The notes beneath the pieces are model-generated. The model was not told the origin of the DNA and ran no database searches. It was given only the letters and a program-made list of their open reading frames with translations. The position numbers were made by a program, and so were the translations under genes. Shown here piece by piece: positions 4,043 to 8,935 of a DNA stretch of 28,775 bases. Each line of letters begins with the position of its first letter. Position 1 is the first letter of the stretch. Source of the stretch: a virus (taxonomy: Duplodnaviria > Heunggongvirae > Uroviricota > Caudoviricetes); IMG/VR virus record IMGVR_UViG_2778261515_000018, positions 1-28,775 of that record. The stretch is one strand, 5' to 3'.

Positions 4043-5011
4043 TTAGTAGGTTATTTTTGTTGCGAATACTTCGCCTTTTACGATGGCTGTTATGATATTT
4101 TTAGCAACATCTTCTGATGCGCCAACCTTGATAAGGTCAGCAAGTATTTTGTTATTTACTTCTTTCCGGTGAGCTTTATCCTTTGCTCTACGCTCTTCTT
4201 CTTCCTTGATTCTTTTTTCTTCTGCTATTCTGGCTTGCTCTTTTGCTTCAGCCTCGCGCCGGATTCGTTCAGCCTCCTCCTGTGCTTTTCGGCGTTCTGC
4301 TTCAATTGCCGCCTGCTTTTCTCTTTCAGCTCGTTCTGCTGCCTCTTTTGTTTCGCGCTGTGCTCGTTGCTCGGCTTCAATGCGTTCACGCTCTGCACGT
4401 TCCGCTGCGGCCTTAGCTTCTGCTTCTCGCCTTGCTGCTGCTTCAATTTCGGCTTTTGCCTTTGCTTCGGCTTCAGCTCTGGCTTTCTCTTCAGCTTCTC
4501 TTTTTAAGCGTTCTTCATGCTCTCGCTTTTCCTGCTCCGCTTTGAGTCTTGCCTCTTCTCTTTGGCGGTCAAATTCGCGATCCATCAAAATCGCTATTTC
4601 ATGGTCAGACTCAATTTGCTTTGCGAGAGCTTCAGCTGCTGCCTTAGCTTCTTCTTCAGCTTTAATTCGCGCCTGTTCCTCTTCATAATCAGTAAGAGGC
4701 TGGCGTGCCTTGGCTTTCAGCTCATCAAGGCGATCGCGCACTGTCTTGCGGTTGGCATCAATTAGCTTTGGAATTTCCTTCAGTTCAGCAACAAGGTCTT
4801 TTCCAAGACCATCGAGATATGTTTTCGTCTGCGCAACTTTATACGCCAGAGAAGCGATCTCCTTTCTGCCCTTTGCCGTTGTGATATCAGGCACAAAGGA
4901 CATAACTTCACGTTCAACCTTTTGAAGGATTTCTTCAATCTGGTCGGCAGACTGAAATACAGTCATTGCATTTGCTTTTTCAATAACAACTAAATCTGTT
5001 ACTTCACTCAT
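4043..5011 (-). CDS. Coiled-coil protein with a long Glu/Arg/Lys/Ala-rich helical repeat region (322 aa)
   Basis: Track ORF trimmed to the ATG at 5011 (GGAGG 4-5 nt upstream). About 150 residues of EAEAKAKAEIEAAARREAEAKAAAERAERER-type repeats. Confidence 0.7.
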   Translation of the reverse strand: MSEVTDLVVIEKANAMTVFQSADQIEEILQKVEREVMSFVPDITTAKGRKEIASLAYKVAQTKTYLDGLGKDLVAELKEIPKLIDANRKTVRDRLDELKAKARQPLTDYEEEQARIKAEEEAKAAAEALAKQIESDHEIAILMDREFDRQREEARLKAEQEKREHEERLKREAEEKARAEAEAKAKAEIEAAARREAEAKAAAERAERERIEAEQRAQRETKEAAERAEREKQAAIEAERRKAQEEAERIRREAEAKEQARIAEEKRIKEEEERRAKDKAHRKEVNNKILADLIKVGASEDVAKNIITAIVKGEVFATKITY

Positions 5012-5028
5012 ATATCCTCCGTCAAAAA

Positions 5029-5048
5029 AATTGCCCTCACACCGGAGG
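5029..5048 (-). terminator. Intrinsic terminator in the pL operon (tL-like)
   Basis: Minus-strand RNA GCCCUC CGGUGU GAGGGC followed by AAUUUUUUU, immediately upstream of the RBS of the 4043..5011 gene. Confidence 0.55.
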
Positions 5049-5145
5049 GCAAAGAAGATTTCCAATAATCAGAACAAGTCGGCTCCTGTTTGGTTACGAG
5101 CGACATTGCTCCGTGTATTCACTCGTTGGAATGAATACACAGTGC

Positions 5146-6323: not shown

Positions 6324-6632
6324 TTACCTCGCTGTAATTAGTTTTTGCCTTCTGTAACCAGCAGCATACAGTGCAACTTCAGGCAAACAAACGCTTCCGC
6401 TATTCGCATCTGTATTTGATTTGCTAATGATGCCGAGTGATATTGCTTTTTCAGAAATGCTTAAACGCTTTCTCGGGGCTTCCTGAACAGGTTCCTCACT
6501 GTCTGTGCCGAAGATCGAATCGATGATGTTGCATATAGCATCACGCTCGATAGCCAGCTTTCTGCGCCGCTCATGACGGCGAGTTTTGGCATTTCCTGCA
6601 AATGTTGATTTTCCGTACACGATTACCGTCAT
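6324..6632 (-). CDS. N: Antitermination protein N, P22 gp24-type
   Basis: Internal ATG of track ORF with GAGGAA RBS; N-terminal arginine-rich motif GNAKTRRHERRRKLAIERD matches the P22 N peptide; cognate P22-type boxB lies upstream. Confidence 0.85.
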   Translation of the reverse strand: MTVIVYGKSTFAGNAKTRRHERRRKLAIERDAICNIIDSIFGTDSEEPVQEAPRKRLSISEKAISLGIISKSNTDANSGSVCLPEVALYAAGYRRQKLITAR

Positions 6633-6751
6633 GATATTTTCCTCATGTGAAATGGCTTTGGTGGTAATGCGCCAGATGCTGATCTTCTGGTTGCTGTCGT
6701 TGCTGCTGCAATTCACATCACCGCCAAACCCATCTCGTTTGGTATCTGTTT

Positions 6752-6786: not shown

Positions 6787-6831
6787 TGCCAATCTGTTCC
6801 GTTTGGCTTCCAGCTTCCTGCTGATGTGTTT

Positions 6832-6894
6832 AGTATCACCGCTAGTGGTATTTGTGTCAACACCGCCAGAGATAATTTATCACCGCAGATGGTT
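6832..6894 (-). promoter_or_regulatory. pL promoter with OL1/OL2/OL3 operators (lambda-type)
   Basis: Minus strand: -35 TTGACA (6855..6860), 17-bp spacer, -10 GATACT (6832..6837). 17-bp operators OL1 6834..6850, OL2 6858..6874, OL3 6878..6894, near-identical to lambda as recalled. Confidence 0.85.
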
Positions 6895-7043
6895 ATCTGT
6901 ATGTTTTTTATATGGATTTATTTTTTGCAGGGGTGAATTGTTAGGTAGGTGAGGGATCAGAATTGCACTGTTTAGCAAGTTGTATCTATTAGTTTTCCAA
7001 TAAATACAAATGGTTATGTGTTGTTGGGAAAGGGGAGCGAGAG

Positions 7044-7071
7044 GCAAAGAAAACCCGGCGCTGAGGCCGGG
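7044..7071 (-). terminator. t_imm-like intrinsic terminator ending the cI operon
   Basis: Minus-strand RNA CCCGGC CUCAGC GCCGGG followed by UUUUCUUUG; matches the lambda t_imm sequence as recalled. Confidence 0.75.
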
Positions 7072-7085
7072 TTGTGAGGAATTAA

Positions 7086-7271
7086 TTACAGAGCAAAGAG
7101 ATCATGCATTAGGTTGCTGTTCATCTGGTGGTTGAATTGATACGGCTCCAATTCCTTCTTGATCTCGTTCAGGTGTTGTTCCGCTTTTTTTGCCAGATCG
7201 TGACCTTCTTGGATCTGGCTTTCCAACATCTTGTTGAGAATTTCCATCTCCGGTTGCAGATTCTTCGGCAT
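7086..7271 (-). CDS. Possible small overlapping ORF (61 aa) at the 3' end of the peptidase gene
   Basis: Alternative frame MPKNLQPEMEILNKMLESQIQEGHDLAKKAEQHLNEIKKELEPYQFNHQMNSNLMHDLFAL with GAGG about 9 nt upstream of ATG; could be a separate gene, a frameshift product or chance. Confidence 0.25.
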   Translation of the reverse strand: MPKNLQPEMEILNKMLESQIQEGHDLAKKAEQHLNEIKKELEPYQFNHQMNSNLMHDLFAL

Positions 7272-8103
7272 TAGCTTTTTCCTCTTTTTGTAGATACGTT
7301 GTACAATCAATAACCCTCGGCTTTCCAAATGTTGGAATGTCACCATTATGAATTTTGTCACAGAAAAGATTATAGAGTATTTCTGTTATACCTTTAGGAT
7401 GCTCAACACACTTGAAAAGTTCCTTGGCTTCTTTTCTGTCTATAACAAATCCATGTGAAGGATATGAGGCTATTAGTTTGCCTAACGCCCCTTCTTTTAG
7501 GCTGCTTGGTTTGTCTGCTAATCGTTGGCCATAAGTGATAGCTATACTCATTGCGCGCTGATGTTCACCAAGCTTTATTGGATCTATCTGTGCGGCCATA
7601 GGTGCTATCAACGCTTCTGTAAGTCTGGTCGCGATATCAGCAGACATTTTAGTACTTATCTGATTTTCGTATCTTATCTTAACAAGGTGTGAGTTAAACG
7701 CTGAAATAGAGCGTTCCTTTAGAGCATCAAGAGCTGTCATGATAGCTAAACCAGAACTCATCTCACCTATTTCATCGTTTTTTTTCAGTTGGATATCTAA
7801 TGGCCCAAGCTCCCCCATGTCACCAATAACAAGTTTATTGGCTGCTATAGCTATTAGTGTACCAGCACTTTTGCATGGTCCAACAACTAAAAGTGTTACC
7901 GTTTCATAATGGTGTTGTAGAGCTCTACCTATACGATAACCTGCATTTGGATCACCGCCATAAGTAGCAACACAGAAGATAACATTCTCTTTTAATCCAT
8001 GTTGTGACTTACGTTTCTTGATTTCATTGGTGAGATCAAGATAACCATCACGATGAATATCGCCTGTATACACATAAACATCATGATTTTCAATAGAATT
8101 CAT
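7102..8103 (-). CDS. Clp/SppA-fold (S14/S49-like) serine peptidase-like protein (333 aa) in the position of lambda rexAB
   Basis: Track ORF; AGGGAG RBS 8 nt upstream of ATG. Motifs ATYGGDPNAGYRIGRAL and LVVGPCKSAGTLIAIAANK align by eye with the ClpP oxyanion and catalytic-Ser regions; no obvious ClpP His motif, so a Ser/Lys dyad is possible. C-terminal ~70 residues low complexity. Same strand as cI, 115 bp downstream. Confidence 0.65.
   Translation of the reverse strand: MNSIENHDVYVYTGDIHRDGYLDLTNEIKKRKSQHGLKENVIFCVATYGGDPNAGYRIGRALQHHYETVTLLVVGPCKSAGTLIAIAANKLVIGDMGELGPLDIQLKKNDEIGEMSSGLAIMTALDALKERSISAFNSHLVKIRYENQISTKMSADIATRLTEALIAPMAAQIDPIKLGEHQRAMSIAITYGQRLADKPSSLKEGALGKLIASYPSHGFVIDRKEAKELFKCVEHPKGITEILYNLFCDKIHNGDIPTFGKPRVIDCTTYLQKEEKANAEESATGDGNSQQDVGKPDPRRSRSGKKSGTTPERDQEGIGAVSIQPPDEQQPNA

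Positions 8104-8218: not shown

Positions 8219-8935
<717 letters not shown>

What the first reader, a model, noticed from the sequence alone, without database searches (positions are those of the whole stretch)
7086..7361. Alternative-frame ORF overlapping the 3' end of the peptidase gene
The last ~190 nt of the peptidase ORF encode a compositionally biased tail (…EESATGDGNSQQDVGKPDPRRSRSGKKSGTTPERDQEG…). A second frame over the same DNA encodes a helix-like 61-aa peptide with its own GAGG-containing RBS, ending 16 nt past the peptidase stop. The three explanations are a small partner protein, a frameshift (natural or sequencing error) that would give the peptidase a different C-terminus, or chance.
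Basis: seen in the sequence. Interest (0 to 1): 0.5.

Follow-up and report, generated by a model that had tools for sequence, protein, structure and literature searches.

The report
Hidden small gene overlapping prophage peptidase
The last 170 bases of a prophage peptidase gene also encode, in a second reading frame, a real and widely conserved 61-residue helical protein that genome annotation almost always misses and that is probably the peptidase's working partner.

Summary
The conserved unit is 7086-7271 (-), 61 aa, with ATG at 7271 and GAGG 9 nt upstream. The 91-aa GTG version is not conserved.

- **Openness proves nothing.** The hydrophobic-poor peptidase tail leaves the +1 frame open by chance in 16-83% of synonymous resamplings.
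- **Substitution pattern is decisive.** Across 16 homologues (57-100% identity), frame-0 third positions vary at 0.53-0.55 in the gene body and 0.27 in the overlap. Four-fold codons differ at 0.62 versus 0.118.
- **Selection sits on the +1 frame.** pNN/pNS is 0.39 for the +1 frame, with 0 of 2000 bootstraps reaching 1. The frame-0 tail shows no amino-acid constraint (1.07).
- **Replication.** A second clade (49% identity, tails not alignable) gives 0.34.
- **Non-overlapping relatives.** In relatives with short peptidase tails, homologous small proteins lie mostly downstream of the peptidase stop and are followed by a terminator.
- **Frame 0 is also maintained.** It stays open far more than chance allows (P ≤ 0.013).

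A sequencing frameshift, programmed frameshifting and chance are rejected. The pair sits in the cI-N (rexAB) slot. Its function is inferred, not shown.

The parts
7086..7271 (-). Overlapping small gene: 61 codons plus TAA, in the +1 frame relative to the peptidase. The predicted product is a single long alpha-helix.
   Evidence: Sequence. Purifying selection on this frame: pNN/pNS 0.39 [0.31-0.49] in clades A-E and 0.34 [0.24-0.50] in clade F, with 0 of 2000 bootstraps reaching 1. AlphaFold2 gives a helix over residues 3-60 with mean pLDDT 86.
7281..7284 (-). Shine-Dalgarno GAGG, 9 nt upstream of the ATG of the small gene.
   Evidence: GAGG(A) at the same spacing before a conserved ATG occurs in clades A, C, D and E. 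Clade B and L025 use an ATG two codons downstream with GGAG 6 nt upstream.
7102..8103 (-). ClpP-fold serine peptidase gene, 333 aa. RefSeq names it 'SDH family Clp fold serine proteinase'.
   Evidence: The N-terminal ~100-130 residues match ClpP and SppA folds weakly. It belongs to PHROG 21683, function unknown.
7102..7271 (-). Doubly coding stretch: frame-0 codons 278-333 plus the stop (the disordered peptidase tail) and alt codons 1-56.
   Evidence: Tail residues 275-333 have pLDDT ~30. Variability by frame-0 codon position switches from 0.16/0.065/0.53 in the body to 0.43/0.31/0.27 here. Frame 0 is kept open beyond chance, P ≤ 0.013 given the alt protein.
7043..7073 (-). Intrinsic terminator (stem 7073-7052 plus T-tract) that closes the cI-peptidase-small gene unit. 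It lies 13 nt after the small gene's stop.
   Evidence: A terminator likewise follows the small ORF, not the peptidase stop, in L084, L088, L102, L121 and L127.
8219..8932 (-). Lambda-type CI repressor gene directly upstream on the same strand. It is the presumed source of transcription in lysogens (inferred).
   Evidence: RefSeq annotates it as 'LexA family protein' and it matches PHROG 4, transcriptional repressor. Repressor-peptidase synteny recurs in many relatives.
7185..7191 (-). A7 homopolymer inside the overlap. It is a mutational hotspot, not a conserved shift site.
   Evidence: P0128 is a chimera of the alt N-terminus and the frame-0 C-terminus, consistent with a 2-nt deletion here. 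The run is absent from many homologues.

Best explanation
Window 7086-7271 (-) is a genuine, independently translated protein-coding gene. It is overprinted in the +1 frame on the disordered C-terminal tail of the ClpP-fold peptidase gene.

Shown by comparative sequence analysis:
- (i) In the overlap, the +1 frame carries the amino-acid constraint, and the peptidase tail carries none beyond staying open.
- (ii) The start codon and Shine-Dalgarno sequence are conserved.
- (iii) Homologous small proteins are encoded mostly or wholly downstream of the peptidase stop in relatives whose peptidase has a short tail. The gene therefore exists independently of the overlap.
- (iv) Peptidase, small gene and terminator form a conserved two-gene unit. 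In most prophage copies it lies directly downstream of, and co-oriented with, the CI-type repressor, in the slot that rexAB occupies in lambda.

Inferred, not shown:
- The unit is transcribed with cI in lysogens.
- Ribosomes start at ATG 7271 using GAGG 7284-7281.
- The 61-aa product is one long amphipathic helix with a hydrophobic C-terminus. It acts as the peptidase's partner (regulator, inhibitor or substrate) in a lysogen-expressed accessory function, plausibly exclusion of other phages.

I put about 0.9 on 'real translated gene', about 0.6 on 'physical or functional partner of the peptidase', and about 0.3 on 'anti-phage module'.
For: - **Codon-position variability (16 non-redundant homologues, gapless tail alignment).** Body: pos1 0.16, pos2 0.065, pos3 0.53. 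Overlap: 0.43, 0.31, 0.27. The switch falls between alignment codons 270-285 and 285-300, and the alt ATG is at codon 278.
- **Site-class test.** In the overlap pNN 0.283, pNS 0.721, pSN 0.266, giving dNN/dNS 0.146 [0.107-0.288] with 0 of 2000 bootstraps reaching 1. The frame-0 ratio dNN/dSN is 1.09. Control dNN/dNS values are 1.30 for the +2 frame in the overlap and 0.70 for the +1 frame in the body; the uncorrected pNN/pNS is 0.96 in the pre-overlap linker.
- **Degeneracy-matched control.** Four-fold codons with the same amino acid differ at pos3 in 0.62 of pairs (body), 0.61 (linker) and 0.118 (overlap).
- **Independent clade F** (49% identity, tail not alignable in frame 0) shows the same signature: pNN/pNS 0.34 [0.24-0.50], and four-fold pos3 0.585 versus 0.129.
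- **Amino-acid identity in the overlap.** Alt 0.588 versus frame-0 0.447. Alt is higher in 113 of 120 pairs.
- **A telling codon.** Frame-0 codon 321 is NTA in all 16 sequences (pos1 variability 0.79, pos3 0). It encodes the alt Tyr of L-E-P-Y-Q.
- **Start signals.** ATG and GAGG/GGAG are conserved.
- **Non-overlapping homologues.**
  - An HMM built from four overlapping-form peptides finds the L126 +1 ORF as the best of 4486 six-frame fragments (E 2.9e-4). The matched motif lies downstream of the peptidase stop.
  - L088 (mostly non-overlapping) and L122 (fully overlapping) are 38% identical over 61 aa (pairwise E 5e-12), while their peptidases are 65% identical.
- **Frame 0 is also maintained.** P(frame 0 open given the alt protein) is ≤ 0.013.
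- **Structure.** The alt product is a confident single helix and the peptidase tail is disordered.
- **Genomic context.** The cI-N region is a known slot for lysogen-expressed abortive-infection genes (PMC8585504).
Against: - There is no direct evidence of translation, since no Ribo-seq or proteomics data were available here.
- The selection test is my own re-implementation of the OLGenie logic. It uses pairwise comparisons of related sequences, and bootstrapping over codons does not remove phylogenetic non-independence. The replication in a second clade and the degeneracy-matched control mitigate this.
- ORF openness, abundant ATGs and purine-rich SD-like motifs are all expected by chance from the tail's composition.
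- Amphipathicity is only modestly above the synonymous-resampling null (P 0.006-0.23).
- The small protein matches nothing in Pfam, NCBIfam, PHROGs, PADLOC or PDB, so the partner, regulator and defence roles rest on synteny alone.
- Neisseria and Mannheimia copies are not next to a repressor.
Confidence: 0.85

Rival explanations
1. Chance ORF. The +1 frame is open only because the hydrophilic tail lacks codons with T at position 2, and it has no function.
For: Synonymous resampling of the frame-0 tail leaves the +1 frame open in 16-83% of trials for clades A-F. The +1 frame is open over the tail in essentially every homologue regardless of clade. Amphipathicity is only modestly above the null.
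Against: - Chance cannot explain the ~5-fold loss of frame-0 synonymous differences that begins at the ATG.
- It cannot explain pNN/pNS of 0.34-0.39 in two independent clades, with controls near or above 0.7-1.
- It cannot explain the conserved ATG and SD.
- It cannot explain homologous small ORFs in non-overlapping DNA.
Confidence: 0.03
2. Programmed +1 ribosomal frameshifting or transcriptional slippage gives a fraction of peptidase molecules a helical C-terminus instead of the disordered tail. No separate small protein is made.
For: The +1 frame is the constrained frame. In the window itself it is open for 25 codons upstream of the ATG. An A7 run lies in the overlap.
Against: - In most homologues the +1 frame is closed by stops 2-27 codons upstream of the ATG.
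- No slippery motif is conserved in that interval.
- The A-rich tract and the A7 run are not conserved.
- The constraint begins at the ATG, not upstream of it.
- A conserved SD at 6-9 nt and an ATG are what independent initiation needs.
- In short-tail relatives the small ORF starts with its own SD and ATG and lies mostly beyond the peptidase stop.
Confidence: 0.05
3. A frameshift error or mutation in this assembly: the true peptidase C-terminus is the helical frame.
For: None beyond the existence of two open frames. One metagenome-derived protein, P0128, is a real chimera caused by an indel in the A7 run.
Against: - The identical or near-identical frame-0 tail occurs in 28 complete E. coli genomes and many IMG/VR contigs.
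- Frame-0 tails of similar length occur family-wide.
- Frame 0 is open far beyond chance.
Confidence: 0.01
4. The synonymous-site constraint reflects a non-coding element in the mRNA or DNA, such as an RNA structure, an sRNA or a protein-binding or self-immunity site like the aba element of bstA. It does not reflect a second protein.
For: Overlapping non-coding elements can also suppress synonymous variation. The cI-N slot is known to hold such an element in BTP1 (PMC8585504).
Against: - The constraint has strict three-base periodicity matching the +1 frame. Frame-0 pos1, which is the alt wobble position, is nearly saturated (pNS 0.72), while pos3 is frozen.
- Replacements in the +1 frame are conservative: BLOSUM62 per site is 3.11 versus 2.26 for frame 0.
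- There is no Rfam match at E ≤ 1.
- Protein-level homologues exist in non-overlapping DNA of quite different nucleotide sequence.
Confidence: 0.03

Closest known systems
Lambda Rz/Rz1 and P2 lysB/lysC spanin gene pairs (embedded or overlapped +1-frame genes). Cited from established knowledge, not tested here.
   Same: A small gene with its own SD and ATG lies in the +1 frame inside the 3' part of a larger phage gene. In the P2-type 'overlapped' layout it runs past the larger gene's stop, as here (16 nt past). Both products are made, and they work together.
   Different: The 61-aa product has no signal peptide or lipobox cysteine (sequence). The locus is the immunity region, not the lysis cassette. 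The host gene is a ClpP-fold peptidase. Here the larger gene's overlapped part is an unconstrained disordered tail.
Lambda rexA-rexB and Salmonella phage BTP1 bstA (genes in the cI-N slot)
   Same: The genomic position is the same: immediately downstream of the repressor, co-oriented with it, closed by a terminator before OL/pL. That region is described as a mosaic hotspot carrying lysogen-expressed abortive-infection systems (PMC8585504). Like rexAB, this is a two-component unit.
   Different: There is no sequence relationship and no PADLOC model hit. No exclusion or abortive-infection phenotype has been tested. The biochemistry differs, being a ClpP-fold serine peptidase plus a helical peptide.
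Phage 434 Hex (PMC3564112) and Pseudomonas phage Fc02 olg1/olg2 (PMC9936078)
   Same: Small ORFs in alternative frames overlap annotated genes within the repressor transcription unit of temperate phages and are expressed in lysogens. Fc02 olg1 mediates superinfection exclusion (abstracts).
   Different: The overlapped partner there is the repressor or another small ORF, not a peptidase. No homology is claimed. Evidence for those genes is experimental, whereas here it is comparative only.
Lambda C / Nu3 (nested gene in an S49 / ClpP-fold prohead protease gene). Cited from established knowledge, not tested here.
   Same: A second, smaller protein is encoded within the 3' third of a ClpP/S49-fold phage protease gene and functions with it.
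   Different: Nu3 is in the same frame as C, from an internal start. Here the frame is +1, so the two proteins share no sequence. The lambda pair is in the head-assembly module, and this pair is in the immunity region.
Lambda CIII, a small amphipathic-helix inhibitor of the FtsH protease. Cited from established knowledge as a working analogy only.
   Same: It is a ~50-60-residue phage protein built around an amphipathic helix whose job is to modulate a protease.
   Different: No sequence similarity was tested or claimed. CIII targets a host protease and is not encoded with it. The inhibitor role for the present protein is a hypothesis.

Membership tests
Functional out-of-frame overlapping (overprinted) protein-coding gene | Purifying selection acting on the alternative frame (dNN/dNS < 1) | tested here: met
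   Clades A-E: 0.146 with Jukes-Cantor correction, 0.39 uncorrected, with 0 of 2000 bootstraps reaching 1. Clade F: 0.34. Controls range from 0.70 to 2.0.
Functional out-of-frame overlapping (overprinted) protein-coding gene | Suppressed synonymous variation of the reference frame, confined to the overlap | tested here: met
   Pos3 variability is 0.53 in the body versus 0.27 in the overlap. Four-fold sites give 0.62 and 0.61 versus 0.118, and in clade F 0.585 versus 0.129. The onset coincides with the alt ATG.
Functional out-of-frame overlapping (overprinted) protein-coding gene | ORF kept open in homologues beyond what chance allows | tested here: inconclusive
   The ORF is open in all homologues examined. 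However, the composition of the frame-0 tail alone gives P(open) of 0.16-0.83.
Functional out-of-frame overlapping (overprinted) protein-coding gene | Conserved translation-initiation signals (start codon plus Shine-Dalgarno) | tested here: met
   ATG with GAGG(A) at 9 nt in clades A, C, D and E, and GGAG at 6 nt in clade B and L025. One caveat applies: purine-rich tails make SD-like motifs common.
Functional out-of-frame overlapping (overprinted) protein-coding gene | Homologous protein encoded elsewhere without the overlap | tested here: met
   L126: E 2.9e-4, top of 4486 fragments, with the motif beyond the peptidase stop. L088 versus L122: 38% identity. L084, L102 and L121 have the layout SD-ATG small ORF then terminator.
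Functional out-of-frame overlapping (overprinted) protein-coding gene | Direct evidence of translation (ribosome profiling, mass spectrometry or tagging) | not testable with these tools
Programmed ribosomal frameshift site | Conserved slippery sequence, with the alternative frame open from that site | tested here: not met
   Stops close the +1 frame 2-27 codons upstream of the ATG in most homologues. The A-rich tract and the A7 run are not conserved.
Spanin o-subunit (Rz1-like embedded gene) | Lipoprotein signal peptide with a lipobox Cys, and location in the lysis cassette | tested here: not met
   The 61-aa product contains no cysteine and no hydrophobic N-terminal segment. The locus lies between cI and pL.
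SDH family Clp-fold serine proteinase (Pfam PF01972 / NCBIfam NF047768), for the host gene | Score at or above the curated family threshold | tested here: not met
   PF01972 scores 29.6 bits against a cut-off of 31.3. NF047768 scores 36.7 against 250. Both matches cover only residues ~43-114. RefSeq nevertheless applies this name. I therefore call it a ClpP-fold peptidase related to the SDH family, not a certified member.
SDH family Clp-fold serine proteinase (Pfam PF01972 / NCBIfam NF047768), for the host gene | ClpP/crotonase-like fold of the catalytic domain | tested here: inconclusive
   The AlphaFold2 model has mean pLDDT 63. Foldseek's best hits are ClpP and SppA over ~100-130 residues, with E ~4e-3 and TM 0.2-0.4.
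Known anti-phage defence systems (PADLOC-DB v2) | Match of either protein to a defence-system model | tested here: not met
   No families match at E ≤ 1 for either the peptidase or the small protein.

The most novel reading that the evidence does not exclude
The ClpP-fold peptidase and its overprinted helical partner are a previously unrecognised two-component system expressed in lysogens. It occupies the rexAB/bstA slot of temperate phages across Gamma- and Alphaproteobacteria. In this reading the small protein holds the peptidase in check, or is its substrate or sensor, until a superinfecting phage or prophage induction triggers proteolysis. That would make it a new protease-based exclusion, abortive-infection or lysogeny-control mechanism. 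The disordered peptidase tail is kept open over the partner gene, which ties the expression of the two proteins together.
Probability: 0.3. Interest if true: 0.8.

Novelty: new member of a known kind. Interest (0 to 1): 0.62.

Why it matters
- **Strength of the case.** Long out-of-frame gene overlaps with solid evolutionary support are rare in bacterial and phage genomes. This one has an unusually clean signature: the constraint flips from one frame to the other at the start codon. It replicates in an independent clade, and natural controls exist in which the same small gene is not overlapped.
- **Annotation gap.** PGAP annotates only the peptidase in the RefSeq E. coli records inspected, and 28 complete genomes carry the gene. 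Only 4 clusters among 1.84 billion representative proteins match the small protein.
- **How overprinting arises.** Disordered, hydrophobic-poor tails are permissive ground for overprinting, because their +1 frame is stop-free by composition.
- **Biology.** A 'lone peptidase of unknown function' in the most highly expressed prophage operon becomes a two-gene module in the slot known for rexAB and bstA. This gives a concrete candidate for a new prophage accessory or defence function.
- **Testability.** Clean separation-of-function mutations are available to test it.

Tried and rejected
- **ORF openness as evidence.** Rejected after synonymous resampling showed that the +1 frame is open by composition (P 0.16-0.83).
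- **The 91-aa GTG-start ORF (7086-7361).** Rejected because the upstream part carries stops in the homologues.
It is not conserved; only the GAGG within it is.
- **The A7 run (7185-7191) as a -1 shift site from alt into frame 0.** It explains the chimera P0128, but the run is not conserved, so it is treated as a mutational hotspot.
- **Pfam hits for the small protein** (MSP7_C, CorA, DUF3226) and the NCBIfam xseB hit. All fall below the cut-offs and reflect composition.
- **PADLOC, PHROGs, Rfam and PDB sequence searches.** Nothing was found for the small gene. A PDB sequence search with the peptidase profile also found nothing.
- **Genome-contig scan.** It yielded only one locus, L005. The two viral-contig scans supplied most of the homologous DNA.
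- **Literature searches.** Searches on SDH-family, PF01972 and S49 peptidases in prophage immunity regions found no description of this gene pair.
- **Helical hydrophobic moment as an independent test.** It gave only weak support.
- **Structure search of a single helix.** Not attempted, because it would be meaningless.
Full report
**What is there**

The window is a lambdoid prophage. It is 100% identical over this region to E. coli UMNK88, and the gene is present once, on the chromosome, in 28 of 5,426 complete E. coli genomes. Reading along the minus strand, the order is as follows.

- A lambda-type cI gene (8219-8932).
- A 333-aa ClpP-fold peptidase gene (7102-8103).
- An intrinsic terminator (stem 7073-7052).
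- pL (6860-6832) and, by eye, lambda-like operator sequences around 6830-6900.
- An N-like gene.

The peptidase therefore sits where lambda carries rexAB.

- The +1 frame holds a 61-codon ORF with ATG at 7271-7269 and TAA at 7088-7086.
- GAGG lies 9 nt upstream of the ATG, at 7284-7281.
- The ORF ends 16 nt past the peptidase stop (TGA 7104-7102).
- The listed coordinates (7086-7361) are the mechanical 91-aa GTG ORF. That upstream part is interrupted by stop codons in relatives, so the unit of interest is 7086-7271.

**Not a sequencing frameshift**

The same frame-0 tail is found in many independent assemblies: 28 E. coli genomes, a Klebsiella phage and dozens of IMG/VR contigs. A polar, charged tail of about 60-80 residues occurs throughout the family, including homologues from Bartonella, Neisseria and Malonomonas. 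AlphaFold2 models residues 275-333 as disordered, with pLDDT around 30, while the upstream domain is folded.

**Why the open frame alone means nothing**

Stop codons in the +1 frame need T at frame-0 codon position 2, which means codons for hydrophobic residues. A hydrophobic-poor tail is therefore nearly stop-free in +1. I resampled synonymous codons while holding the frame-0 protein fixed, and the +1 frame stayed open in 16-83% of trials for clades A-F. Consistent with this, the +1 frame is open over the tail in every homologue I looked at. ATGs (xAT|Gxx) and purine-rich SD-like motifs are also favoured by this composition. This is the strongest form of the 'chance' reading, and it had to be beaten by a different kind of evidence.

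**The substitution pattern**

I built a frame-0 codon alignment of 16 non-redundant homologues at 57-100% protein identity. They come from E. coli, Klebsiella, Edwardsiella-type, Pantoea-type, Kluyvera-type and Aeromonadaceae sources. The alignment is gapless across the tail.

- **Mean pairwise nucleotide difference by frame-0 codon position.** The body gives 0.16 / 0.065 / 0.53, the normal pattern. The overlap gives 0.43 / 0.31 / 0.27.
- **Where the switch falls.** It lies between alignment codons 270-285 (pos3 0.51) and 285-300 (pos3 0.22). The alt ATG is at codon 278. From codon 281 on, many third positions are invariant.
- **Frame correspondence.** In the +1 frame, frame-0 pos3 is alt pos2 and frame-0 pos1 is the alt wobble. 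The pattern is exactly that of a protein encoded in +1.
- **A single-codon example.** Frame-0 codon 321 is NTA in all 16 sequences (pos1 variability 0.79, pos3 0.00). This preserves the Tyr of the alt motif L-E-P-Y-Q, while the peptidase residue drifts among V, I and L.

I then ran a site-class test following the OLGenie logic, using my own implementation.

| Region and frame | Measure | Value |
|---|---|---|
| Overlap, +1 frame | pNN / pNS / pSN | 0.283 / 0.721 / 0.266 |
| Overlap, +1 frame | dNN/dNS (selection on alt frame) | 0.146 [0.107-0.288], 0 of 2000 bootstraps ≥ 1 |
| Overlap, +1 frame | dNN/dSN (selection on frame-0 tail) | 1.09 [0.72-1.72] |
| Overlap, +2 frame (control) | dNN/dNS | 1.30 |
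| Body, +1 frame (control) | dNN/dNS | 0.70 |
| Linker just upstream of the overlap (control) | pNN/pNS (uncorrected) | 0.96 |

The frame-0 tail shows no detectable amino-acid constraint.

A degeneracy-matched control removes any codon-composition artefact. Among four-fold codons encoding the same residue in both sequences, the third base differs in 0.62 of comparisons in the body, 0.61 in the linker and 0.118 in the overlap. Two-fold codons give 0.387 versus 0.194.

At the protein level, the alt frame is more conserved than frame 0 over the same nucleotides. Identity is 0.588 versus 0.447, alt is higher in 113 of 120 pairs, BLOSUM62 per site is 3.11 versus 2.26, and invariant columns number 5 versus 0.

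**Replication in a second clade**

A second clade (L033, L034, L040, L041, L042) has peptidases about 49% identical to the window's, and its tails cannot be aligned with the first set in frame 0. It shows the same signature.

- Body pos3 is about 0.55, against 0.18-0.37 in the tail.
- pNN/pNS is 0.34 [0.24-0.50], with no bootstrap reaching 1.
- Four-fold pos3 differences are 0.585 versus 0.129.

**Start signals**

The ATG is conserved in register, with GAGG(A) 9 nt upstream, in clades A, C, D and E. Clade B has two ATGs, and L025 keeps only the downstream one, which has GGAG 6 nt upstream. In most relatives the +1 frame is closed by stops 2-27 codons upstream of this ATG.

Together with the lack of any conserved slippery motif, this argues against programmed frameshifting. 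One database protein, P0128, is an alt/frame-0 chimera consistent with a 2-nt deletion in that A7 run, which marks it as a mutational hotspot rather than a mechanism.

**The same small gene without the overlap**

A wider scan of viral contigs returned distant relatives at 37-50% identity. Nearly all have a 50-90-aa +1 ORF that starts in the tail and ends 4-178 nt beyond the peptidase stop.

- **Short-tail layouts.** In L084, L088, L102, L121 and L126 the peptidase tail is short. The small ORF has its own SD and ATG and lies mostly downstream; in L084, L088, L102 and L121 an intrinsic terminator follows it.
- **HMM test.** An HMM built from four overlapping-form peptides (L092, L111, L115, L119; shared motif Q-M-x-[KR]-[AS]-x-E-F-A-[RKT]) was searched against 4,486 six-frame fragments from all the other loci. 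The best hit is the L126 +1 ORF (E 2.9e-4). The matched motif lies at about nt 947-1027, while the peptidase stops at nt 882.
- **Paired comparison.** The L088 small protein, of which only about 32 nt overlap, is 38% identical over 61 residues to the fully overlapped L122 one (pairwise E 5e-12). Their peptidases are 65% identical, and the L088 peptidase lacks the tail.
- **Bartonella.** The Bartonella copy has a helical +1 ORF ending in ...IPYQIKPSK, echoing the P-Y-Q motif.

The small gene is therefore the conserved entity. How far the peptidase reads over it varies between lineages.

**Both frames matter**

The converse simulation holds the alt protein fixed and resamples its synonymous codons. 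Frame 0 then stays open in at most 1.3% of trials. Alt-synonymous sites are near saturation between clades. The frame-0 tail is therefore actively kept open in the long-tail lineages, even though its sequence drifts freely.

I cannot say whether the tail protein itself is needed or whether continued translation across the small gene's start is what matters. One lineage (L021, Edwardsiella-type) has lost the last four tail codons to a nonsense change while keeping the alt ORF intact.

**What the product looks like**

AlphaFold2, run with an 8-sequence alignment, gives a single helix over residues 3-60. Mean pLDDT is 86, rising to 97-98 for residues 11-30. The helical hydrophobic moment exceeds the synonymous-resampling null only modestly (P 0.006-0.23), so 'helix-like' by itself is weak evidence.

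There is no cysteine, no signal sequence and no transmembrane stretch. The C-terminus is hydrophobic in most clades (..LFAL..FSF..YCL). Nothing matches in Pfam, NCBIfam, PHROGs, PADLOC or the PDB beyond compositional hits to amphipathic helical proteins. A profile search of 1.84 billion representative proteins finds only four clusters, so gene callers almost never report this gene. RefSeq annotates only the peptidase.

**The peptidase**

It scores just below the Pfam PF01972 threshold (29.6 versus 31.3 bits) and far below NCBIfam NF047768. Its N-terminal ~100-130 residues match ClpP and SppA folds weakly. It belongs to PHROG 21683, function unknown. I call it a ClpP-fold peptidase related to the SDH family rather than a certified member.

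**Context and likely role**

- **Synteny with the repressor.** A CI-type repressor gene lies immediately upstream on the same strand. This holds in the window and the other E. coli prophages and in Bartonella, where it is Pfam-verified as HTH plus Peptidase_S24.
- **By-eye cases.** From N-terminal sequences read by eye, the same holds in L005, L027, L033, L040, L084, L102 and L107.
- **Exceptions.** Neisseria and Mannheimia copies are not beside a repressor.
- **Published background.** The cI-N interval of lambdoid phages is described as a mosaic hotspot whose occupants (rexAB, bstA) are abortive-infection systems co-transcribed with the repressor (PMC8585504). Overlapping small ORFs in repressor operons have experimental precedent in 434 Hex (PMC3564112) and Fc02 olg1/olg2 (PMC9936078).

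From strict co-occurrence and operon structure I infer that the 61-aa protein works with the peptidase as a regulator, inhibitor or substrate. A lysogen-expressed exclusion or defence role is plausible. None of this is shown, and PADLOC has no matching model.

**Verdict**

This is a new, well-supported example of an overprinted gene. It is architecturally closest to the Rz/Rz1 and lysB/lysC arrangement, and it sits on the disordered tail of a prophage peptidase. Its molecular function remains open.

Noticed in passing
window 7185-7191 (-): There is an A7 homopolymer inside the doubly coding stretch. A database protein (P0128, from an ENA contig) is a chimera of the alt-frame N-terminus and the frame-0 C-terminus, consistent with a 2-nt deletion in this run. 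Such a deletion would disrupt both genes at once.
   Followed up: partly
L021 (IMGVR_UViG_2563367136_000003; same protein as P0014, named Edwardsiella tarda): Frame 0 carries a nonsense change (Q to stop) four codons before the usual peptidase stop, while the +1-frame small ORF is intact. This is a natural case in which the tail end is dispensable but the small gene is kept.
   Followed up: partly
window 6324-6716 (-): This N-like ORF contains the arginine-rich stretch GNAKTRRHERRRKLAIERD, which resembles the P22 N RNA-binding motif (from memory). RefSeq labels the UMNK88 copy only 'hypothetical protein'. The prophage thus combines lambda-like cI and operators with a different N type.
   Followed up: no
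window 4043-5065 (-): This 340-aa ORF has a long, highly repetitive E/A/K/R-rich (coiled-coil-like) central region. RefSeq annotates the UMNK88 gene overlapping this stretch as hypothetical.
   Followed up: no
L129 2001-3039 (Neisseria dumasiana record MTAA01000021.1): The recorded gene range ends at the stop of the +1-frame small ORF rather than at the peptidase stop, and it does not translate to the 328-aa protein on record. This suggests an annotation that merges the two frames.
   Followed up: no
L092, L111, L115, L119, L126; L088, L097, L107, L112, L114, L122; L090, L102: The small partner proteins of distant peptidase clades fall into distinct motif groups: Q-M-x-[KR]-[AS]-x-E-F-A-[RKT]; an N-terminal M-[KR]-x-[HY]-Q-T-P; and a C-terminal S-x-M-x-R-L-N-F-R. 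It is unclear whether all of them are homologous to the window's L-E-P-Y-Q type or arose separately.
   Followed up: partly
L001 2302-2517 (Klebsiella phage ST13-OXA48phi12.4): In this phage the peptidase and small-gene unit is not behind a cI-type gene. It lies next to a divergent XRE regulator plus ImmA/IrrE metalloprotease pair. A 71-aa hypothetical gene overlaps the peptidase start by 14 nt.
   Followed up: no
L130 and L132 (Neisseria; Mannheimia succiniciproducens): These peptidase homologues sit in ordinary chromosomal neighbourhoods, with no adjacent repressor, yet they still carry a 60-65-aa +1 ORF spanning the peptidase stop.
   Followed up: partly
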